DNA from: a phage
Sequence record: PZ452581.1
Length of the DNA stretch: 64,000 nucleotides
Strand: one strand, 5' to 3'
The notes under the pieces were generated by a model. The model saw only the letters and a program-made list of their open reading frames with translations, was not told the DNA's origin and did not search any database. Shown one piece after another: positions 1,865 to 48,054 of the stretch (within the stretch, counting starts at the first letter, position 1; every line of letters starts with the position of its first letter). The position numbers were made by a program, and so were the translations under genes.

Positions 1865-3844
1865 ATGACTTTATTATCTCCGGGCATTGAGCTCAAAGAA
1901 ACTACGGTTCAAAGCACCGTGGTTAATAACTCTACTGGTACAGCAGCTCTGGCCGGTAAATTCCAGTGGGGTCCTGCTTTTCAAATTAAACAGGTTACAA
2001 ATGAAGTAGATTTAGTTAATACTTTTGGTCAACCTACAGCTGAAACTGCTGACTATTTTATGTCTGCAATGAATTTCTTACAATACGGAAATGATTTGCG
2101 AGTTGTGCGTGCTGTCGATAGAGATACCGCTAAAAACTCATCTCCGATTGCCGGTAATATTGAATACACTATTTCTACCCCAGGTAGTAACTACGCGGTT
2201 GGAGATAAAATCACGGTTAAGTATGTTTCAGAAGACATTGAAACAGAATGTAAAGTTACCGAAGTAGATGCTGATGGAAAAATTAAGAAAATTAATATTC
2301 CTACTGCAAAAATTATCGCTAAAGCGAAAGAAGTCGGTGAATATCCAACATTAGGTTCTAACTGGACCGCGGAAATTTCTTCGTCTTCCTCTGGTTTAGC
2401 TGCAGTAATAACTCTTGGAAAAATTATTACTGATTCTGGTATTTTATTAGCTGAAATTGAAAATGCTGAAGCTGCCATGACAGCTGTTGACTTTCAAGCA
2501 AATCTCGAAAAATATGGAATTCCAGGAGTAGTAGCTCTTTATCCAGGCGAATTAGGCGATAAAATTGAAATTGAAATCGTATCTAAAGCTGACTATGCAA
2601 AAGGAGCTTCTGCATTACTCCCAATTTATCCAGGTGGTGGTACTCGTGCATCTACTGCTAAAGCAGTGTTTGGATATGGACCACAAACTGATTCACAGTA
2701 CGCTATTATAGTTCGTCGTAATGATGCTATTGTTCAAAGCGTTGTTCTTTCAACTAAGCGCGGTGAAAAAGATATTTACGATAGTAACATCTATATCGAT
2801 GACTTTTTCGCAAAAGGTGGTTCAGAATATATTTTTGCAACTGCACAAAACTGGCCAGAAGGCTTCTCTGGAATTTTAACTCTGTCCGGTGGATTATCAT
2901 CAAATGCTGAAGTAACAGCAGGAGATTTGATGGAAGCTTGGGACTTCTTTGCTGACCGTGAATCTGTTGACGTTCAACTGTTTATTGCGGGTTCTTGTGC
3001 CGGTGAATCTTTAGAAACAGCATCTACTGTCCAAAAACACGTCGTTTCAATTGGGGATGCTCGTCAAGATTGCTTAGTATTGTGCTCACCACCACGTGAA
3101 ACTGTAGTTGGAATTCCTGTAACTCGTGCAGTAGATAATTTAGTTAACTGGAGAACTGCAGCAGGTTCATACACTGATAATAACTTTAATATCAGTTCAA
3201 CCTATGCAGCAATCGATGGCAACTACAAATATCAGTATGACAAATATAATGATGTGAATCGTTGGGTTCCATTAGCAGCTGATATTGCTGGTTTATGCGC
3301 GAGAACCGATAACGTTTCTCAGACTTGGATGTCTCCAGCTGGTTATAATCGTGGCCAGATTCTTAACGTTATTAAACTTGCTATTGAAACTCGCCAGGCT
3401 CAGCGCGACCGTTTATACCAAGAAGCTATCAACCCGGTAACCGGTACAGGTGGTGATGGTTACGTATTGTATGGTGATAAAACAGCTACTTCTGTTCCTT
3501 CTCCGTTTGATCGTATTAACGTTCGTCGTCTGTTTAATATGTTGAAAACGAATATCGGACGTAGTTCAAAATATCGTTTGTTCGAATTAAACAATGCGTT
3601 TACTCGTTCATCATTCCGCACAGAAACTGCTCAGTACTTGCAAGGAATTAAAGCTCTTGGCGGAATTTATGAATATCGTGTAGTTTGCGATACAACAAAT
3701 AATACTCCATCAGTAATTGATAGAAATGAGTTTGTTGCAACATTCTACATCCAACCGGCGCGCAGTATAAATTATATTACTTTGAATTTCGTCGCAACTG
3801 CTACTGGTGCAGATTTCGATGAGTTAACTGGTCTTGCAGGTTAA
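1865..3844 (+). CDS. 18: Tail sheath protein (gp18)
   Basis: 659-aa ORF; length and sequence match T4 gp18 as recalled; follows terminase. Confidence 0.95.
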   Translation: MTLLSPGIELKETTVQSTVVNNSTGTAALAGKFQWGPAFQIKQVTNEVDLVNTFGQPTAETADYFMSAMNFLQYGNDLRVVRAVDRDTAKNSSPIAGNIEYTISTPGSNYAVGDKITVKYVSEDIETECKVTEVDADGKIKKINIPTAKIIAKAKEVGEYPTLGSNWTAEISSSSSGLAAVITLGKIITDSGILLAEIENAEAAMTAVDFQANLEKYGIPGVVALYPGELGDKIEIEIVSKADYAKGASALLPIYPGGGTRASTAKAVFGYGPQTDSQYAIIVRRNDAIVQSVVLSTKRGEKDIYDSNIYIDDFFAKGGSEYIFATAQNWPEGFSGILTLSGGLSSNAEVTAGDLMEAWDFFADRESVDVQLFIAGSCAGESLETASTVQKHVVSIGDARQDCLVLCSPPRETVVGIPVTRAVDNLVNWRTAAGSYTDNNFNISSTYAAIDGNYKYQYDKYNDVNRWVPLAADIAGLCARTDNVSQTWMSPAGYNRGQILNVIKLAIETRQAQRDRLYQEAINPVTGTGGDGYVLYGDKTATSVPSPFDRINVRRLFNMLKTNIGRSSKYRLFELNNAFTRSSFRTETAQYLQGIKALGGIYEYRVVCDTTNNTPSVIDRNEFVATFYIQPARSINYITLNFVATATGADFDELTGLAG

Positions 3845-3849
3845 TTGAT

Positions 3850-4500
3850 ATGGGGCTTCGGCCCCTATTCTCGAGGAATCAAGTGATTATTTCTAAATTT
3901 ATTAAAGTGAAAATTGTACCATCAAATTTTAAACATTATCAATCAAAGGGTTATAAATTAACACCTCTTGGAGCGGTTAAACATGGATTTAGGTATTATG
4001 AAATTGATGTTAAAGTTGAAGACATTAAAGGTAGTACCGCGTATGTAAAATGCCGTTGCGATAAATGTGGAATTGAATATAACCAACGCATTGGAAGAAA
4101 CACTGATATTTGTCGTGATTGCCGTCATAAAGATAAAATGCGCAATAATTCATATGGTTCCGCGAATAAAGGAAAAACAGTAGAATGTATGCATGGCGTA
4201 AATCATCCAAGATGGAACCCAAATAAATCTGAAATGCGTGAATATATTTCATTGGTATATAAAGAAACTCGTAAGCATAAGAAAATTTGGTCAAAATGGC
4301 CAAATGCTGATAAAATAGGAGTGTGTGGTACAAAAGGCGCTTACCAACTTGATCATAAGGTATCTATCAAATACGGTTTTGATAATTTAATTCCTGCTAA
4401 AATAATTGGCGGTATTAATAATTTAGAAATAATCACTTGGGAATCTAACCGAGAAAAATCAAAAAGAAATAGTGTAGATCTTTGGGATTTACTAGAATGA
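3850..4500 (+). CDS. Free-standing HNH-family homing endonuclease (zinc-finger plus HNH-like motif)
   Basis: 216-aa ORF with Cys cluster CRCDKCG...CRDCRH and C-terminal DH...N...N motif (QLDHKVSIKYGFDNL...NNLEIITWESNREK); ATG at 3850 lies inside the hairpin, alternative in-frame GTG at 3883 preceded by GAGGA. Confidence 0.6.
   Translation: MGLRPLFSRNQVIISKFIKVKIVPSNFKHYQSKGYKLTPLGAVKHGFRYYEIDVKVEDIKGSTAYVKCRCDKCGIEYNQRIGRNTDICRDCRHKDKMRNNSYGSANKGKTVECMHGVNHPRWNPNKSEMREYISLVYKETRKHKKIWSKWPNADKIGVCGTKGAYQLDHKVSIKYGFDNLIPAKIIGGINNLEIITWESNREKSKRNSVDLWDLLE
3852..3865 (+). terminator. GC stem-loop GGGGC-TTCG-GCCCC after gene 18
   Basis: 5-bp GC stem with UUCG tetraloop directly after the gene 18 stop; overlaps the first in-frame ATG of the downstream HNH ORF. 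Confidence 0.5.
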
Positions 4501-4507
4501 TTCTAAA

Positions 4508-4525
4508 GGCCTGTTTCGGCAGGCC
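4508..4525 (+). terminator. Stem-loop GGCCTG...CAGGCC after the HNH ORF
   Basis: 6-bp inverted repeat directly downstream of the HNH stop codon. Confidence 0.4.
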
Positions 4526-4526
4526 A

Positions 4527-4534
4527 TATAAATA
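4527..4534 (+). promoter_or_regulatory. Late-promoter-like TATAAATA (distal, upstream of gene 19)
   Basis: Exact TATAAATA immediately 3-prime of the HNH-cassette hairpin, about 80 nt upstream of gene 19. Confidence 0.45.
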
Positions 4535-4585
4535 CACTATATCCTTAATTCTTTAATTCTATATGCCCTAGGTTAAACATAGGGA

Positions 4586-4593
4586 TATAAATA
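4586..4593 (+). promoter_or_regulatory. Late promoter TATAAATA (proximal) for gene 19
   Basis: Exact TATAAATA about 15 nt upstream of the gene 19 ATG. Confidence 0.6.
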
Positions 4594-4607
4594 CTACAGA
4601 GGCTAAT

Positions 4608-5099
4608 ATGTTTGTAGATGATGTAACACGAGCGTTTGAATCTGGTGATTTTGCTCGACCTAACTTATTCCAAGTAGAAATTTCTTATCTTGGACAAAAT
4701 TTTACGTTTCAATGTAAAGCCACTGCTTTACCAGCTGGTATTGTAGAAAAAATTCCAGTCGGATTTATGAACCGTAAAATTAACGTAGCAGGCGATCGTA
4801 CATTCGATGACTGGACTGTTACAGTAATGAACGATGAGGCACATGATGCTCGCCAGAAGTTTGTTGATTGGCAAAGCATTGCTGCTGGGCAAGGGAACGA
4901 AATTACTGGTGGAAAACCAGCAGAGTATAAAAAGAGCGCTGTTGTTCGCCAATATGCTCGTGACGCTAAAACTGTAACAAAAGAAGTCGAAATTAAAGGC
5001 CTGTGGCCTACCAACGTGGGTGAACTTCAATTAGATTGGGATTCAAACAATGAAATCCAAACCTTTGAAGTAACTCTTGCTCTCGATTATTGGGAATAA
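4608..5099 (+). CDS. 19: Tail tube protein (gp19)
   Basis: 163-aa ORF matching T4 gp19 as recalled. Confidence 0.95.
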   Translation: MFVDDVTRAFESGDFARPNLFQVEISYLGQNFTFQCKATALPAGIVEKIPVGFMNRKINVAGDRTFDDWTVTVMNDEAHDARQKFVDWQSIAAGQGNEITGGKPAEYKKSAVVRQYARDAKTVTKEVEIKGLWPTNVGELQLDWDSNNEIQTFEVTLALDYWE

Positions 5100-43141: not shown

Positions 43142-44320
43142 TTAAAAATATTTTTTAAAACTCATCATAACTTTATCATCAACATCATTATCAATCTGTG
43201 CTACAAGGTAAGATGACAGTTCTACTTCTTGCGGCGCGGATTGAACATTATCAGAATTAAGGTATTCACGAATCCAAGGATATGGATGTTTAACCGGAGC
43301 ATCGGTAATTGGACATGGAAGACCACACTGTTTCATACGAGATACAGTTAAGTAATCAATAAAGCTCCACATGCTATTTGTATTTAATCCAGGAACATCG
43401 CCATCTTTAAATAAATGAACTGCCCAATCTTTTTCTTGGCGGTTAACTTCCATGAAAATATCAACTGCTTCTTGTTCACACTCTTGAGCAATTTTAACCC
43501 ATTCATCGCCATCAGTACCAGATTGAAGTTGACGAATAATATATTGGGTGCCTTTAAGGTGAAGCTGTTCATCGCGTGCAATGAACTTCATAATCTTGGC
43601 ATTACCTTCCATGATTTCCATGTTCTTATGGAAGTTAAAGGTACATGCGAAAGATACATAAAAACGAATAGCTTCCAATGCATTGATTACATGCAAACAG
43701 AGGTAAAGAGATTTCATTAGCTCACGCTTCCAATATGTCTCATGCTCAATAGCATCTTCAATAACGTCTTCGTCTGCATTAATTTCTTTTTGGTATTCGA
43801 TATCAGCTTTAGCGTTTTCCCAATAACGAGTTTTAATCAGAACATCATCATAATAACGTCCAATGGATTCAGCACGTTTCATAATAGCTTCATCTAATAC
43901 AATTTCATCAAATACCTTCGATGGATCAGTATAAAGATTTCGCATGATATGAGTATATGAACGACTGTGAATAGTTTCACTAAAAGTCCATGTAGCAACC
44001 CATGTATCAAGGCTTGGGTCTGAAATTAATGACATAAGTACAGCAGATGGCGCGCGACCCTGAATGCTATCTAAAAGTGATTGATACTTCAAGTTGTTAG
44101 TAAAAATATTTTGCTGATACTGAGGAAGCTTATTAAACTGTGCAGCATCCATCATCAAGTTTACTTCTTCAGGACGCCAGAAAAATGATAATTGCTTTTC
44201 GGTTAAATCTTCAAAAACTTTATGACGTTGAATATCATAACGCGCAATACCAAGACCTGAACCAAAAAACATAGGTTCTTTTAAAACATCAACTGGATTT
44301 GTATTAAAAACTGTGCTCAT
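43142..44320 (-). CDS. nrdB: Ribonucleotide reductase small subunit (uninterrupted, no intron)
   Basis: 392-aa continuous ORF of the expected length for NrdB. Confidence 0.92.
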   Translation of the reverse strand: MSTVFNTNPVDVLKEPMFFGSGLGIARYDIQRHKVFEDLTEKQLSFFWRPEEVNLMMDAAQFNKLPQYQQNIFTNNLKYQSLLDSIQGRAPSAVLMSLISDPSLDTWVATWTFSETIHSRSYTHIMRNLYTDPSKVFDEIVLDEAIMKRAESIGRYYDDVLIKTRYWENAKADIEYQKEINADEDVIEDAIEHETYWKRELMKSLYLCLHVINALEAIRFYVSFACTFNFHKNMEIMEGNAKIMKFIARDEQLHLKGTQYIIRQLQSGTDGDEWVKIAQECEQEAVDIFMEVNRQEKDWAVHLFKDGDVPGLNTNSMWSFIDYLTVSRMKQCGLPCPITDAPVKHPYPWIREYLNSDNVQSAPQEVELSSYLVAQIDNDVDDKVMMSFKKYF

Positions 44321-44371: not shown

Positions 44372-46636
44372 TCATAATTTACAGGATGAACAATCTTCAG
44401 CTTTTGGAGTTTCTATTTCATAATCATCAGTACCAGAACCATCGCGAGTATTATGATAATAGAAATTTTTTCCGCCAAAATACCAAAAATACAAAAGGTC
44501 ATCAATCATTATTGACATTGGAACCTTTCCTTTTGGAAAAATCTGCGGGTCATAATATGTATTCGCTGAAGCTGATTGACATACCCATTTAAGCATAATA
44601 GCTACCTGCGTAAGATAAGGTTTATTACCTTTCTTAGCTAATTTCCACGTATAATCATAGAGGTCTATGTTATGCTCAATATTGGGCACGACTTGATTAA
44701 AGGAACCCTCTTTTGATTCTTTAACAGAGACTGGTCCACGTGGAGGCTCGATACCGTTTGTACTGTTAGAAACTTGGGAAGATGACTCACATGGCATAAG
44801 TGCTGATAATGTGCTATTACGGATGCCAAAGAGCTTAAGGTCTTCCCGCAGCGACGACCAGTCACAAACGTATTTTGGAGCTGCGATTTGGTCAATCTTT
44901 TTATTGTACCAGTCGATAGGTAATTCGCCTCGAGACCAACGAGTGTCTGAATAATATTCGCAAGGTCCTTTTTCTTTGGCGAGTTTAATGGATGCTTTAA
45001 TGAGTCCATACTGTAATCTCTCAAATAGTTCATGTGTTAAATCGTTAGCATCTTCATAAGAAGCAAAATTACTTGCCAGCCAAGCTGCATAGTTAGTAAC
45101 ACCTACACCGAGATTTCGACGCTTTTTAGCTTTTTCTGCTTCAGGAACTGGATATCCTTGGTAATCCAAAAGATTATCAAGAGCACGAACTTGAACTTCT
45201 GCCAATTCATTAATTTTATCTTGGTCTTGCCAATCGAAGTTATCTAACACAAATGCAGATAACGTACACAGTCCAATTTCGGCATCAGGACTATTCACGT
45301 CATTTGTTGGAATAGCAATTTCACAACACAAGTTGCTCTGACGAATAGGTGCCTTTTCACGAATAAATGGAGTATAGTTATTCGTATTATCAATGAACTG
45401 CACATAAATCCTTGCTGTTCCTGAGCGTTCAGTCATGAGTAATTCAAACAGTTCACGGGCTTTAATACGCTTTTTACGAATATTAGGGTCTTTTTCTGCG
45501 GCTTCATATAATTCACGGAAACGGTCTTGGTCTTTAAAATAAGAATAATAAAGCTCACCACCCATTTCATGCGGACTGAACAAAGTAATGTAATCATTCC
45601 TTCCGAATCGTTCCATCATTAGGTCATTCAGTTGAACGCCATAATCCATATGACGGATACGGTTTTCTTCTACACCTTTGTTATTTTTCAAAACGAGAAG
45701 ATTTTCAACTTCCAAATGCCAAATAGGATAATAAGCAGTAGCAGCGCCGCCACGAATTCCACCCTGTGAGCATGATTTAACAGCAGTCTGAAAATGTTTC
45801 CAAAAAGGAATAACACCAGTATGACGTACTTCACCTGTGCCAATCTTAGAACCTTCAGCACGAATCATACCAACGTTAATACCAATTCCAGCGCGTTTGG
45901 AGATATATTCAACAATTGAAGCGGAAGCCTTATTGATAGACTTCAGCGAATCACCTGCCTCAATAACAACACATGAACTAAACTGTCGAGTCGGAGTACG
46001 ACAGCCAGCCATAATAGGAGTTGGCAATGAAATCTGTCGAGTAGATACTGCTTCATAAAAACGAATAACATGTTTTAATCTATCAACAGGTTCATCTTGA
46101 TGTAATGCCATTCCAATAGTCATAAATGCAAACTGTGGAGTTTCATAAATTTGACCAGTGGTTTTATCTTTAACTAAATATTTTTCTTTTAATTGCATCG
46201 CCCCGGAATAAGTAAATTCCATATCCCGCTCATGCTTAATTTTTGATTCTAAAAATGTAATTTCTTCGGCAGAATATTTTGACAACAATTCAGGGTCGTA
46301 TTTACCTTCATTTACACAGTAAGAAATATGGTCAATAAATGAGCATGGTTCATACTGACCATAAACATGCTTACGAAGAGCGAACATTAAACAGCGTGCA
46401 GCTACGTATTGATAATCAGGCTCTTCAACCGAAATAGAATTCGCAGCAGCCTTAATTACAATGGTTTGAATGTCATCAGTGGTCATTCCATCACGGAGAT
46501 ATGATTTAATATTTTCATATAATTCATAAGGATCTACAGATGTTCCTTCAGCTGCCCAAGATAAAACTTTAATAATTTTTTGCGGGTCAAAGCTCTGAGA
46601 AACACCACTACTTTTGATAATATTAATTAATTGCAT
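44372..46636 (-). CDS. nrdA: Ribonucleotide reductase large subunit
   Basis: 754-aa ORF; size and position as T4 NrdA. Confidence 0.93.
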   Translation of the reverse strand: MQLINIIKSSGVSQSFDPQKIIKVLSWAAEGTSVDPYELYENIKSYLRDGMTTDDIQTIVIKAAANSISVEEPDYQYVAARCLMFALRKHVYGQYEPCSFIDHISYCVNEGKYDPELLSKYSAEEITFLESKIKHERDMEFTYSGAMQLKEKYLVKDKTTGQIYETPQFAFMTIGMALHQDEPVDRLKHVIRFYEAVSTRQISLPTPIMAGCRTPTRQFSSCVVIEAGDSLKSINKASASIVEYISKRAGIGINVGMIRAEGSKIGTGEVRHTGVIPFWKHFQTAVKSCSQGGIRGGAATAYYPIWHLEVENLLVLKNNKGVEENRIRHMDYGVQLNDLMMERFGRNDYITLFSPHEMGGELYYSYFKDQDRFRELYEAAEKDPNIRKKRIKARELFELLMTERSGTARIYVQFIDNTNNYTPFIREKAPIRQSNLCCEIAIPTNDVNSPDAEIGLCTLSAFVLDNFDWQDQDKINELAEVQVRALDNLLDYQGYPVPEAEKAKKRRNLGVGVTNYAAWLASNFASYEDANDLTHELFERLQYGLIKASIKLAKEKGPCEYYSDTRWSRGELPIDWYNKKIDQIAAPKYVCDWSSLREDLKLFGIRNSTLSALMPCESSSQVSNSTNGIEPPRGPVSVKESKEGSFNQVVPNIEHNIDLYDYTWKLAKKGNKPYLTQVAIMLKWVCQSASANTYYDPQIFPKGKVPMSIMIDDLLYFWYFGGKNFYYHNTRDGSGTDDYEIETPKAEDCSSCKL

Positions 46637-47193: not shown

Positions 47194-48054
47194 TTACACC
47201 GCCATCTTTCCTTTCAAGACACCATGGGACTGATAATCTTTGAGAACGAAATCTCGTGCTGTCATATATTCAGTTAACCAATACATTTGAGTTTCAGTAT
47301 CGCATTGACTGAATCCATTAGGCCAATTAATACTGAGTTTGCATAGATCCATAGGAGTTCTATTTAATATCTCTTTGCATTGCTCAATATGGTTAGAATA
47401 AATGTGTGTATTACCACCCGAGAATACCAAATCGCCCGGAACTAGTTCACACATGTCAGCAACAATATGCAAAAGAGCAGCATAACTCGCGATGTTAAAT
47501 GGAAGACCGAGGAAAACATCTACCGAACGTTGATACCATTGGAGGTCAAGGTATCCGTTACGCACATTAAACTGATAGAACATATGACAAGGAGGTAATG
47601 CCATCTGCTTGAGTTCAGCTGGATTCCATGCCGACACAATTTGACGCCTATCGTTGGGAAATGTTTTAATACGATTAACAACTTCTACAATTTGATCTAC
47701 ACCACCAAAATCACGCCACTGTTTTCCGTAAATTGGACCAAGTTCACCGCTATGATAACCTAAGTCTTTGGCCTGGTTTTCGTAGTTTTCATCCCAAATT
47801 GTTTTTCCTGCAATTAAAGATCCATGAGTACGTTGACGTAAATCATTTACGTTAGTACTTCCTGATAAGAACCACAATAACTCAGAAATACATGCATTCC
47901 AGGCGAGCTTCTTAGTCGTTACTGCAGGAAAACCTTTAGTTAAATCCCAGCGTAATTTAGTACCGAACAAAGCAATTGTTCCTGTGCCTGTTCGGTCATC
48001 AGTTTCATAGCCATTTTCAAAAATGTCTTTAATTAAATCTTGGTATTGTTTCAT
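47194..48054 (-). CDS. td: Thymidylate synthase (uninterrupted, no intron)
   Basis: 286-aa continuous ORF containing the catalytic PPCH motif. Confidence 0.95.
   Translation of the reverse strand: MKQYQDLIKDIFENGYETDDRTGTGTIALFGTKLRWDLTKGFPAVTTKKLAWNACISELLWFLSGSTNVNDLRQRTHGSLIAGKTIWDENYENQAKDLGYHSGELGPIYGKQWRDFGGVDQIVEVVNRIKTFPNDRRQIVSAWNPAELKQMALPPCHMFYQFNVRNGYLDLQWYQRSVDVFLGLPFNIASYAALLHIVADMCELVPGDLVFSGGNTHIYSNHIEQCKEILNRTPMDLCKLSINWPNGFSQCDTETQMYWLTEYMTARDFVLKDYQSHGVLKGKMAV

What the first reader, a model, noticed from the sequence alone, without database searches (positions are those of the whole stretch)
3845..4607. HNH endonuclease cassette between tail sheath (18) and tail tube (19) genes, with its start codon inside a GC hairpin
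The 18-19 junction holds a 216-aa ORF with a Cys4-type zinc finger and an HNH-like motif. As far as I recall, T4 has no gene at this position. The cassette is bracketed by GC hairpins (3852-3865 and 4508-4525) and followed by an extra TATAAATA at 4527 in addition to the gene 19 promoter at 4586. The first ATG (3850) is part of the hairpin stem, which would occlude initiation on read-through gene 18 transcripts; an in-frame GTG at 3883 with a GAGGA upstream is the alternative start. This looks like a free-standing homing endonuclease that arrived with its own flanking signals.
Basis: partly seen in the sequence, partly recalled or inferred. Interest (0 to 1): 0.6.

Follow-up and report, generated by a model that had tools for sequence, protein, structure and literature searches.

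The report
Uncharacterised homing-endonuclease-like gene between tail genes
A small optional gene sits between the tail sheath and tail tube genes of this T4-like phage; it looks like a selfish DNA-cutting "homing" gene of an undescribed family, and its start site is predicted to be locked shut by pairing with its own active-site coding region 520 bases downstream.

Summary

**The insert.** Relative to T4, window 3845-4499 (655 bp) replaces 8 nt (TACGGTGC). About 400 of roughly 520 Tequatrovirus records have the empty site. 48 carry this "RB3-type" allele and 70 carry a "T6-type" allele (T6 ORF19.1, deposited 1994).

**The flanks.** The downstream hairpin (4508-4525) and both TATAAATA boxes are native T4 intergenic sequence, not cassette-borne. 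Only the upstream UUCG hairpin came with the insert.

**The start codon.** It is GTG 3883 (205 aa), conserved across genera. It is not ATG 3850.

**Mobility.** Relatives split rnlA in Acinetobacter phage 133 and interrupt the tail sheath gene in Campylobacter phage CP21.

- A perfect 20-nt inverted repeat (3880-3899 / 4420-4439) forms part of a roughly 40-bp predicted helix that sequesters the ribosome-binding site and GTG. It is conserved in six lineages, with compensatory and synonymous-site support.
- Two unrelated N-terminal modules share one catalytic module in at least five lineages.

No cleavage or homing data exist, so the mechanism is inferred.

The parts
1865..3844 (+). Gene 18 (tail sheath), the upstream flank. 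Its last 45 nt are almost invariant in 14 compared genomes.
3760..3793 (+). Patch of dense, almost entirely synonymous polymorphism in the 3' end of g18, with three haplotypes. It is in strong linkage with the insert type and is a candidate target or co-conversion tract (inferred).
   Evidence: An analogous patch exists in a second lineage.
3845..4499 (+). The insert relative to T4: 655 bp replacing the T4 octamer TACGGTGC.
   Evidence: alignment
3852..3865 (+). Cassette-borne hairpin GGGGC-UUCG-GCCCC, 7 nt after the g18 stop. It lies upstream of the ribosome-binding site and does not cover it. An equivalent UUCG hairpin follows g18 in Salmonella phage S16.
   Evidence: dG -11.6, z -2.9
3850..3852 (+). 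Probably not used: it is AAG in PP01 and absent from the family consensus N-terminus.
3873..3877 (+). Shine-Dalgarno-like GAGGA, 5 nt before the GTG. Mostly paired in the predicted long-range helix.
3883..4500 (+). Most probable coding sequence: 205 aa, GTG start, TGA stop. This is the RB3-type allele of the 'ORF19.1' family (PHROG 5104).
3880..3899 (+). 5' arm of the perfect 20-nt inverted repeat. It covers the GTG start and codons 1-6 (V-I-I-S-K-F).
4420..4439 (+). 3' arm of the inverted repeat. It encodes N-L-E-I-I-T-W of the nuclease motif.
3868..3909 (+). 5' side of the extended long-range helix (about 40 bp) in the minimum-energy and centroid folds of the whole ORF RNA. The partner is about 4410-4455.
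   Evidence: The same architecture appears in S16 and PSD9.
3904..4282 (+). Central module (residues about 8-133: N-terminal domain, zinc ribbon, linker). It is only 33-57% identical in DNA to the T6-type allele, while both ends are 80-100% identical.
4057..4122 (+). Cys4 zinc ribbon or treble-clef-like motif (C59, C62, C77, C80). It gives weak DUF4379 matches in 10 of 36 relatives.
4351..4458 (+). Putative beta-beta-alpha-metal (H-N-N) nuclease core: D157, H158, N180, N189, K192, invariant in 36 close and 42 distant relatives.
4500..4607 (+). Resident g18-g19 intergenic region, identical in empty-site phages. It holds the hairpin 4508-4525, TATAAATA at 4527-4534 and 4586-4593, and the g19 ribosome-binding site. 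It is not part of the mobile insert.
4608..5099 (+). Gene 19 (tail tube), the downstream flank.

Best explanation
Window 3845-4499 is an optional, free-standing homing-endonuclease-type gene. It belongs to an uncharacterised family: T6 'ORF19.1', PHROG 5104.

**The protein (inferred).** It is 205 aa, starting at GTG 3883. It has an N-terminal DNA-recognition part with a Cys4 zinc ribbon, and a C-terminal H-N-N nuclease core of the beta-beta-alpha-metal (HNH) type.

**Proposed action (inferred).** In mixed infections the enzyme would cut gene-less genomes at or near the 18/19 junction. The cut site is either across the junction that the insert disrupts, or in the polymorphic patch 45-85 bp inside the 3' end of g18. 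Recombinational repair would then copy the gene and the adjacent g18 sequence into the cut genome.

**Proposed expression control (inferred).**
- There is no promoter of its own here, so transcription would come by read-through of late g18 transcripts past the cassette's UUCG hairpin.
- The start codon is a weak GTG.
- A roughly 40-bp long-range RNA helix pairs the ribosome-binding site, the GTG and the first six codons with the N-L-E-I-I-T-W coding segment 520 nt downstream.
- Ribosomes could therefore load only before the 3' arm is transcribed. Alternatively, the duplex is cut by RNase III.

**What is shown:** the insert boundaries, its distribution, the family, the invariant motif, the fold resemblance, the inverted repeat and its conservation.

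**What is inferred:** nuclease activity, the target, homing and the translational effect.
For: **Empty site and distribution**
- The empty site is precise.
- 48 RB3-type records and 70 T6-type records sit among about 520 Tequatrovirus records with near-identical flanks.
- The site is also empty in Mosigvirus JK36.
- It is occupied in S16, Dhakavirus phages, Aeromonas AS-zj and Sinorhizobium phiM7.

**Mobility of the family**
- A member splits rnlA in Acinetobacter phage 133 (profile E 4e-20).
- A member sits inside the fragmented tail sheath gene of Campylobacter CP21 (E 4e-19).
- The family has 6160 cluster representatives at E<=1e-3.
- Distant members fuse the same C-terminal core to NUMOD3 and helix-turn-helix modules.

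**Nuclease core**
- D157, H158, N180, N189 and K192 are invariant.
- AlphaFold pLDDT is 85-86.

**Start codon**
- GTG is conserved and the ATG is not.

**Long-range helix**
- The 20-nt perfect inverted repeat was not reached in 2000 shuffles (maximum 15). It is the only one of its kind in the 64-kb window.
- The helix is present in both the minimum-energy and centroid folds for the window (z -6.65), S16 (z -4.66) and PSD9 (z -6.09).
- Duplex energy is -29 to -38 kcal/mol in 12 of the 13 GTG-start homologues, against -19 to -24 for the best other site. The thirteenth (L043) has lost it at -15.9.
- It is absent in ATG-start homologues.
- 91.8% of cells are paired, against 31-45% in slid controls. 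Two pairs show compensatory changes on both sides.
- Within the arms, 49 of 54 codons with the same amino acid are identical, against 248 of 508 elsewhere.

**Linkage**
- 44 of 48 RB3-type records carry g18 haplotype B.
- All 11 sampled T6-type records carry haplotype C.
Against: - No HNH family in Pfam or NCBIfam, and no solved HNH structure, matches by sequence.
- Foldseek against the PDB found nothing.
- There is no detectable relation to the T4-type HNH homing enzymes I-TevIII and MobE (hhalign probability below 1%).
- From 45 bp upstream to 130 bp downstream of the insertion point, the 13 tabulated genomes differ at a single silent g18 position, so there is no obvious immunity polymorphism there.
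- All three g18 haplotypes also occur in empty-site phages.
- Four RB3-type records carry the T4-like haplotype.
- Linkage over less than 100 bp is expected from plain descent.
- The gene occupies the same junction in many genera, which vertical inheritance with losses also explains.
- The covariation evidence is thin: 3 cells in 2 pairs among 11 related sequences.
- A helix spanning 520 nt may not form on translated mRNA.
- No transcript, protein or cleavage data exist.
Confidence: 0.6

Rival explanations
1. The gene is a domesticated or accessory nuclease kept for the phage's benefit, not an actively homing element. Possible roles are degrading or excluding co-infecting relatives, or countering a host defence. 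Its presence or absence would reflect selection in different hosts.
For: - The gene is intact, and both the catalytic-type residues and the elaborate expression control are conserved across several genera at one locus.
- Two allelic recognition modules are maintained in at least five lineages, which suggests balancing selection.
- Petrov et al. 2010 (PMC2993671) note that homing enzymes contribute to exclusion between T-even phages.
Against: - It is absent from about three quarters of Tequatrovirus records with no sign of cost.
- It has no match in the PADLOC defence library.
- Relatives that split rnlA and a tail sheath gene behave as selfish insertions.
- Exclusion and homing are not mutually exclusive.
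Confidence: 0.15
2. The gene is a passive cassette. It moves or is lost by ordinary homologous recombination between conserved flanks and stem-loops, in the manner of morons or promoter-stem-loop (PeSL) cassettes. The nuclease would play no part, or would be inactive.
For: - Both ends of the insert adjoin stable GC-rich stem-loops.
- Dhakavirus and metagenomic versions carry a GTTTAC...TATAAT early-promoter-like sequence plus a stem-loop upstream of the gene. This is the PeSL arrangement described by Arbiol et al. 2010 (PMC2839356).
- Recombinant alleles exist: YwIITB1 and 121/2022-2B.
Against: - The window's copy has no sigma-70-like promoter between 3845 and 3882.
- The two hairpins share no extended homology.
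- Purifying selection keeps the nuclease-type residues invariant over thousands of relatives.
- This reading does not explain the gene-splitting insertions of relatives.
Confidence: 0.1
3. The gene is ancestral to T4-like phages and inherited vertically. T4, T2 and most Tequatrovirus phages would simply have deleted it.
For: - The same position is occupied in Tevenvirinae genera, Emmerichvirinae (AS-zj) and Emdodecavirus (phiM7).
- Protein divergence between genera (44-67% identity) is of the order expected for accessory genes.
Against: - Three states (empty and two alleles) segregate among phages whose flanks are more than 97% identical.
- The empty site is identical in hundreds of records rather than a scatter of independent deletions.
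- Allele type is decoupled from the rest of g18 and g19, which are mosaic.
- The family also occurs at other sites.
Confidence: 0.1
4. The inverted repeat 3880-3899 / 4420-4439 acts otherwise than by blocking ribosome loading. It could be a double-stranded RNase III target that removes the ORF RNA from g18-g19 late transcripts. Or it could act at DNA level, for example as a recombination or secondary-structure element.
For: - A nearly continuous duplex of about 40 bp is long enough for RNase III (general knowledge).
- Cleavage would leave g18 RNA ending in its hairpin and free the g19 RNA.
- The arms lie in the two segments shared by both allele types.
Against: - The duplex always includes the ribosome-binding site and start codon. 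In S16 and the Dhakavirus phages the paired stretch extends over GGAUU of the ribosome-binding site. That points to initiation control.
- It co-occurs strictly with the weak GTG start.
- The arms do not coincide with the boundaries of the variable module.
Confidence: 0.2

Closest known systems
Free-standing homing endonuclease genes of T-even phages (seg and mob genes such as SegF, SegG and MobE)
   Same: - It is an optional gene in an intergenic spot between conserved essential genes.
- A precise empty site exists in close relatives.
- It is linked to flanking sequence variants.
- It is small and modular, with a DNA-binding part plus a nuclease part.
- Expression looks tightly restrained.
   Different: - There is no sequence relation to the GIY-YIG seg genes or to mob-type HNH genes (hhalign probability below 1% against MobE).
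- The domain order is reversed: the nuclease motif is C-terminal here and N-terminal in MobE and I-TevIII.
- RB3's row in the 2010 census table of homing genes has no entry in the 'other HNH' column, which is where this gene would fall.
- No cleavage or homing has been shown.
HNH / beta-beta-alpha-metal nucleases, e.g. the phage-type HNH proteins Gme HNH (4h9d) and GVE2 HNH (5h0o)
   Same: - These are the best structural matches of the predicted C-terminal domain.
- The Asp-His on strand 1, Asn before strand 2 and Asn in the following helix are invariant.
   Different: - No HNH profile matches.
- Helices are inserted between the two strands.
- There is no CxxC pair flanking the core.
- The metal ligand is Asn (H-N-N type) rather than His.
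RNA hairpins that sequester the ribosome-binding site of T4 homing endonuclease genes (I-TevI, I-TevII, I-TevIII, segB, Aeh1 mobE), and the hairpin just upstream of the site in seg43(25) (Edgell et al. 2010, PMC2988022)
   Same: - The ribosome-binding site and start codon are buried in a stable RNA structure.
- A separate very stable hairpin sits just upstream of the ribosome-binding site without covering it, as described for seg43(25).
   Different: - The known cases are local hairpins, relieved by a late promoter placed inside the structure.
- Here the partner strand lies 520-540 nt downstream, inside the same ORF, in the active-site coding region.
- No late promoter lies between the arms upstream of the start.
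Long-distance RNA interactions that control translation in RNA phage MS2 (maturation gene and the coat-replicase 'Min Jou' interaction); recalled from general knowledge, not tested here
   Same: - A long-range duplex closes a start site.
- Initiation would then be possible only on nascent or ribosome-opened RNA.
   Different: - The phage type is different, and so are the genes.
- Here the 3' arm lies in the gene's own coding region.
- The effect is only predicted.
[not shown]
   Same: - RB3_165 is the same gene, 100% identical over 763 nt.
- T6 ORF19.1 is the alternative allele at the same site. Its depositors also proposed a GTG start.
   Different: - Both are annotated only as an ORF or a hypothetical protein.
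- No function, fold, regulation or allele structure is described in the records or in the papers searched.

Membership tests
HNH / beta-beta-alpha-metal nuclease superfamily | Significant match to an HNH sequence profile (Pfam HNH, HNH_2-5, NCBIfam) or to a solved HNH protein by sequence | tested here: not met
   - There is no HNH hit at E<=1 for the window protein.
- Among 36 relatives, single insignificant HNH_4 and HNH_5 hits appear (E 0.08 and 0.22).
- 2 of 42 distant relatives hit PF01844 at E>=0.003.
- PDB profile searches found no nuclease.
HNH / beta-beta-alpha-metal nuclease superfamily | Beta-hairpin followed by a helix (beta-beta-alpha) fold | tested here: inconclusive
   - The models have pLDDT 85-86, with strand 154-158, strand 181-185 and helix 186-192.
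- Foldseek against the PDB found nothing.
HNH / beta-beta-alpha-metal nuclease superfamily | Invariant general-base His at the end of strand 1, structural Asn, and a metal-binding Asn or His in the helix | tested here: met
   D157, H158, N180 and N189 (plus K192) are invariant in 36 close and 42 distant relatives. Their positions match the predicted strands and helix.
HNH / beta-beta-alpha-metal nuclease superfamily | Divalent-metal-dependent DNA cleavage | not testable with these tools
   This needs a biochemical assay.
Free-standing homing endonuclease genes | Presence/absence polymorphism with a precise empty site among closely related genomes | tested here: met
   655 bp replace 8 nt. About 400 records are empty and 118 occupied among roughly 520 Tequatrovirus records with near-identical flanks.
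Free-standing homing endonuclease genes | Family members found at different insertion sites, including inside host genes | tested here: met
   - A member splits rnlA in Acinetobacter phage 133.
- A member lies within the fragmented tail sheath gene of Campylobacter CP21, beside other homing genes.
Free-standing homing endonuclease genes | Enzyme cuts the gene-less allele near the insertion site, and the carrier genome is immune | not testable with these tools
   The only candidates are the junction disrupted by the insert and the g18 patch 3760-3793.
Free-standing homing endonuclease genes | Over-transmission with co-conversion of flanking markers in mixed infection | tested here: inconclusive
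   - Allele type is strongly linked to g18 3' haplotypes (44 of 48 records; 11 of 11 sampled).
- Divergence is elevated in the last roughly 100 bp of g18 in two lineages.
- Such linkage is also expected without homing. Crosses are needed.
T4 mob-type / I-TevIII-type HNH homing endonucleases | N-terminal HNH (HNH_3 / PF01844) domain followed by NUMOD-type DNA-binding modules; detectable homology | tested here: not met
   - RB3 I-TevIII has an N-terminal HNH_3 domain. RB3 MobE has an N-terminal match to Pfam HNH (PF01844, 19.3 bits, just under its 21.4-bit cut-off) plus NUMOD1.
- hhalign probability against this family is 0.6% for each.
- The domain order is the opposite here.
PeSL (promoter-early stem-loop) cassettes | Early sigma-70-like promoter overlapping or next to a stem-loop on both sides of the ORF | tested here: not met
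   - No promoter-like site lies in 3845-3882.
- The downstream stem-loop is resident T4 sequence followed by late promoters.
- Dhakavirus-type copies do show GTTTAC...TATAAT plus a stem-loop upstream.
Hairpin-regulated T4 homing endonuclease genes | Stable RNA structure that buries the ribosome-binding site or start | tested here: met
   In silico only. The long-range helix covers GAGGA and the GTG in the minimum-energy and centroid folds, in three genera.
Hairpin-regulated T4 homing endonuclease genes | Late promoter inside the structure that yields an open, translatable transcript | tested here: not met
   No TATAAATA lies between the g18 stop and the start. The nearest are at 1829 and 4527.

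The most novel reading that the evidence does not exclude
The 18/19 element may be a two-allele homing system with a self-limiting RNA switch.

- **Two alleles.** Two anciently diverged recognition modules (A = RB3-type, B = T6-type) share one catalytic module and one leader. Each is tied to its own silent-site variant of the g18 3' end. They have co-existed across at least five phage lineages. A possible reason is that each enzyme cuts genomes that are empty or carry the other allele, giving frequency-dependent replacement.
- **RNA switch.** Production of the nuclease would be limited to roughly one round per transcript. A conserved helix of about 40 bp pairs the ribosome-binding site and start with the gene's own active-site coding segment 520-540 nt away. 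To my knowledge this kind of control has not been described for homing endonuclease genes.
Probability: 0.25. Interest if true: 0.75.

Novelty: new variant of a known kind. Interest (0 to 1): 0.5.

Why it matters
T-even phages are the reference system for free-standing homing endonucleases, and their mobile-gene content was thought to be largely catalogued.

- **A missed family.** This family has thousands of relatives in metagenomes, and the Pfam, NCBIfam, PHROGs and PADLOC libraries searched here give it no functional annotation. RB3's row in the 2010 census has no 'other HNH' entry. It sits in the middle of the tail gene block.
- **What activity would show.** If the enzyme is active, it adds a new nuclease scaffold with two natural, interchangeable recognition modules on one catalytic core. 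That is a ready-made case for studying how specificity is swapped.
- **A testable RNA mechanism.** The predicted long-range closure of the start site by the active-site coding region shows a way for a toxic selfish gene to limit its own expression without a promoter of its own. Synonymous and compensatory mutations can test it directly.
- **Annotation.** The correct start is GTG. The S16 gene call is truncated. Labels such as 'holin', 'head morphogenesis' and 'type II restriction endonuclease' on this gene in public records are not supported.

Tried and rejected
**Sequence and structure searches**
- Pfam, NCBIfam, PADLOC and PDB sequence searches gave no informative hit: single protein, 36-sequence profile and C-terminal profile.
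- Foldseek against the PDB found nothing.
- The AlphaFold-database Foldseek library was unavailable.
- Rfam found no known RNA family in 3700-4700.
- Profile-profile comparison with RB3 I-TevIII and MobE was negative. I had wrongly recalled I-TevIII as having a C-terminal HNH; one search corrected this.

**Sequence features**
- Base composition of the insert (33% GC) is ordinary for T4-like DNA and says nothing about origin.
- The sigma-70 and terminator scans showed no promoter or intrinsic terminator belonging to the cassette. The hairpins lack U-tracts, so I do not call them terminators.
- ATG 3850 as the start is rejected.
- 'Downstream hairpin and extra late promoter are part of the cassette' is rejected.
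- No paralogue of the gene exists in the 64-kb window.

**Literature**
- Searches for this ORF or family found no functional study.
- One search was wasted on Candida 'orf19.1' names.

**Data limits**
- T4 records carry no annotated promoters or stem-loops for the 18-19 spacer.
Full report
**What the window is.** The region is a T4-like (Tequatrovirus) late-gene block:
- terminase gene 17 at 1-1833;
- tail sheath gene 18 at 1865-3844;
- the ORF in question;
- tail tube gene 19 at 4608-5099;
- portal gene 20 from 5171.

Window 3845-4607 is 100% identical to phage RB3, where the ORF is RB3_165, 'hypothetical protein', annotated from the GTG that corresponds to window 3883.

**Checking the observation.**
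- Present as described: the 216-codon ORF from ATG 3850, the Cys-rich segment, the D-H...N...N segment, both GC hairpins and both TATAAATA boxes.
- The hairpins fold better than shuffles (z -2.9 and -3.3).
- TATAAATA is enriched in the window: 18 occurrences against 9.2 expected.
- T4 has 8 nt (TACGGTGC) where the window has 3845-4499.
- Window 4500-4607 is 100% identical in T4, T2, RB14 and many other empty-site phages. The downstream hairpin, the 'extra' TATAAATA at 4527 and the g19 promoter therefore belong to the resident 18-19 spacer, not to the insert.
- Only the upstream hairpin GGGGC-UUCG-GCCCC arrived with the gene.

**Distribution.**
- About 520 phage records match the flanks at 90% identity or more.
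- 48 of them carry this allele at 95% protein identity or more.
- 70 carry a second allele, first deposited in 1994 as T6 'ORF19.1', with the depositors' note that it probably starts at GTG.
- The rest are empty.
- Homologues occupy the same junction in Salmonella phage S16, Dhakavirus phages (PSD9, IME540, UGJNEcP4), Aeromonas phage AS-zj and Sinorhizobium phage phiM7.
- Mosigvirus JK36 is empty.
- Public annotations are mostly 'hypothetical protein'. A few are automated labels: homing endonuclease, HNH endonuclease, type II restriction endonuclease, holin, head morphogenesis.

**Is it an HNH nuclease?** By sequence profiles, no.
- Pfam, NCBIfam and PDB searches with the single protein, a 36-member profile and a C-terminal profile give nothing. 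The exceptions are weak zinc-ribbon matches (DUF4379 in 10 of 36 relatives, and the mitoribosomal protein mS66).
- PHROGs places the protein in family 5104, of unknown function.
- An exhaustive profile search shows a large family: 6160 cluster representatives at E<=1e-3 and 111 at E<=1e-30.
- D157, H158, N180, N189 and K192 are invariant in close and distant members.
- Distant members join the same C-terminal core to NUMOD3 and helix-turn-helix modules and to DUF7487, and two reach Pfam HNH weakly.
- AlphaFold models (pLDDT 85-86) place D-H at the end of a strand, N180 before a second strand and N189 in the following helix.
- Foldseek found nothing.

I conclude that an H-N-N variant of the beta-beta-alpha-metal core is likely. 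The evidence is a motif plus a modest fold match. The family is unrelated at profile level to RB3 I-TevIII and MobE, and its domain order is reversed.

**Evidence for mobility.**
- The empty site is precise.
- A family member splits rnlA in Acinetobacter phage 133. Its annotators noted similarity to T6 ORF19.1.
- Another member lies within the fragmented tail sheath gene of Campylobacter phage CP21, beside other homing genes. Profile E-values are 4e-20 and 4e-19.
- The window has no paralogue.

**Start codon.**
- Most of the aligned homologues begin at M/V-I-I-S-K.
- PP01 has AAG in place of the upstream ATG.
- S16, the Dhakavirus phages and metagenomic relatives all use GTG preceded by a GGA-type ribosome-binding site.

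The start is therefore GTG 3883.

**Two allele classes.**
- Against T6-type alleles the DNA is at least 90% identical in 3845-3903.
- It is 33-57% identical in 3904-4282.
- It is 70-100% identical in 30-nt windows across 4283-4492, and 100% identical from 4493 to 4607.
- Recombinants exist: YwIITB1 and 121/2022-2B.
- At protein level, five A/B pairs from different lineages have C-terminal domains 92-99% identical but N-terminal modules only 27-36% identical. The same module type in different lineages is 46-61% identical in the N-terminal part and 75-82% in the C-terminal part.
- A second lineage shows the same sharp mosaic at DNA level (L027 against L028).

The recognition part is therefore dimorphic, and the dimorphism spans lineages.

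**Flanks.**
- Among 14 genomes, the last 45 bp of g18, the spacer and the first roughly 130 bp of g19 differ at a single silent g18 position in 13 of them. The 14th, 236Ecol005PP, has two small differences in the spacer.
- A 34-bp patch in g18 (3760-3793) has three haplotypes that differ almost only at silent sites.
- 44 of 48 RB3-type records carry haplotype B. The other four carry the T4-like haplotype A. All 11 sampled T6-type records carry haplotype C.
- All three haplotypes also occur in empty-site phages.
- In the second lineage, A- and B-bearing contigs differ at 16 of the last 102 nt of g18 and at 3 of the preceding 100.

This fits co-conversion or target-site differences. It is also what tight linkage alone would give.

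**The long-range helix.**
- A repeat scan found a perfect 20-nt inverted repeat. The 5' arm, 3880-3899, spans CAA, the GTG and codons 2-6. The 3' arm, 4420-4439, encodes N-L-E-I-I-T-W.
- None of 1000 mononucleotide shuffles or 1000 codon shuffles exceeded 15 nt. It is the only perfect inverted repeat of 16 nt or more, with arms 30-2000 nt apart, in the 64-kb window.
- Folding the whole ORF RNA (3845-4530) puts this duplex in both the minimum-energy and centroid structures. With small bulges it extends to about 40 bp and includes GAGGA. The z-score is -6.65.
- S16 and PSD9 give the same architecture, with z-scores of -4.66 and -6.09.
- In 12 of the 13 distinct GTG-start homologues, from six lineages, the start region pairs with the NLEIITW region at -29 to -38 kcal/mol. 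The best other site in the ORF gives -19 to -24. The thirteenth (L043) has lost the pairing (-15.9). ATG-start relatives lack the pairing too, at -5 to -17.
- On a codon-anchored alignment, 91.8% of cells pair, against 31-45% when partners are slid.
- Two pairs change on both sides: U-A to C-G in S16 and L042, and A-U to U-A in L046.
- Codons for identical amino acids are the same codon in 49 of 54 cases in the arms and in 248 of 508 elsewhere.

The covariation count is small and the sequences are related, so it is supporting evidence rather than proof. The repeat and its nucleotide-level conservation are solid.

**Comparison with known regulation.**
- Edgell et al. 2010 (PMC2988022) describe local hairpins that bury the ribosome-binding site of I-TevI, I-TevII, I-TevIII, segB and Aeh1 mobE. 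These are relieved by a late promoter placed inside the hairpin.
- They also describe a stable hairpin just upstream of the ribosome-binding site of seg43(25).
- Here the upstream UUCG hairpin resembles the seg43(25) case.
- The burial of the start is long-range, and no late promoter lies inside it.
- How the start is ever opened is inferred. Candidates are loading on nascent RNA, opening by ribosomes, and RNase III processing.

**Literature.**
- RB3's row in the 2010 census of homing genes in T4-related genomes has no entry in the 'other HNH' column, where this gene would fall (PMC2993671, Table 5).
- The T4 mobile-element review does not mention the 18-19 locus.
- A 2023 survey of phage nuclease genes does not treat it.
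- Searches on the gene and family names found nothing relevant.
- The library does not cover most subscription journals, including the 1994 paper that is probably linked to the T6 record. Prior description cannot be excluded.

**Verdict.** This is a real, optional gene of a large uncharacterised family, and most likely a free-standing homing endonuclease with an HNH-like core. Its stated profile test fails. The long-range start-site helix and the lineage-spanning two-module allele system are the parts that go beyond routine annotation.

Noticed in passing
window 43142-44320, 44372-46636, 47194-48054 (minus strand): By size and position the ORFs look like uninterrupted nrdB (392 aa), nrdA (754 aa) and td (286 aa). 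Only 51 nt separate nrdA and nrdB. This phage therefore seems to lack the nrdB and td introns and mobE that RB3 carries, although its 18-19 region is identical to RB3. The ORFs were judged from lengths only and were not identified by search.
   Followed up: partly
window 3941-3958 versus 4575-4592: An 18-nt direct repeat is 83% identical. It places TATAAATT (7 of 8 of the late-promoter box) inside the ORF at 3951-3958, in a context like the g19 late promoter. If active, it would give transcripts carrying only the 3' arm of the long-range helix.
   Followed up: no
L004 (Salmonella phage S16) 2965-3585: The public annotation (gp100.1) covers only the C-terminal third of the homologue (3265-3585). 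The full reading frame with a GTG start is intact.
   Followed up: partly
L027 1619-2191, L028 1908-2480, L006 4148-4729: Some Dhakavirus-like genomes carry a further ORF of about 190 aa, with no Pfam hit, between gene 19 and gene 20. The two metagenomic copies differ sharply in one internal stretch of about 120 bp (50-68% identity, against more than 90% around it).
   Followed up: no
L022 (Acinetobacter phage 133) 2070-4147: rnlA is split into two ORFs by a member of this family. The overlaps at both junctions could allow study of how the split ligase is made.
   Followed up: partly
L023 (Campylobacter phage CP21) 1-6186: The tail sheath gene is broken into at least four annotated pieces, interleaved with a 388-aa family member and followed by three annotated homing endonuclease genes.
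   Followed up: no
phage records MG010123.1 and PV654520.1: Records named as a Staphylococcus phage (SAJK-IND, 32 kb) and a Pseudomonas phage (vB_PSGBLB0006) contain this T4-like g18-ORF-g19 region at 98-99.5% identity. This is probably contamination or mislabelling.
   Followed up: no
L005 2760-2830, L027 205-275, L028 500-570: In Dhakavirus-type copies the space between the g18 stop and the GTG holds GTTTAC, an 18-nt spacer, TATAAT and a GC stem-loop. This is the promoter-stem-loop (PeSL) arrangement of Arbiol et al. 2010. The Tequatrovirus copy lacks the promoter part.
   Followed up: partly
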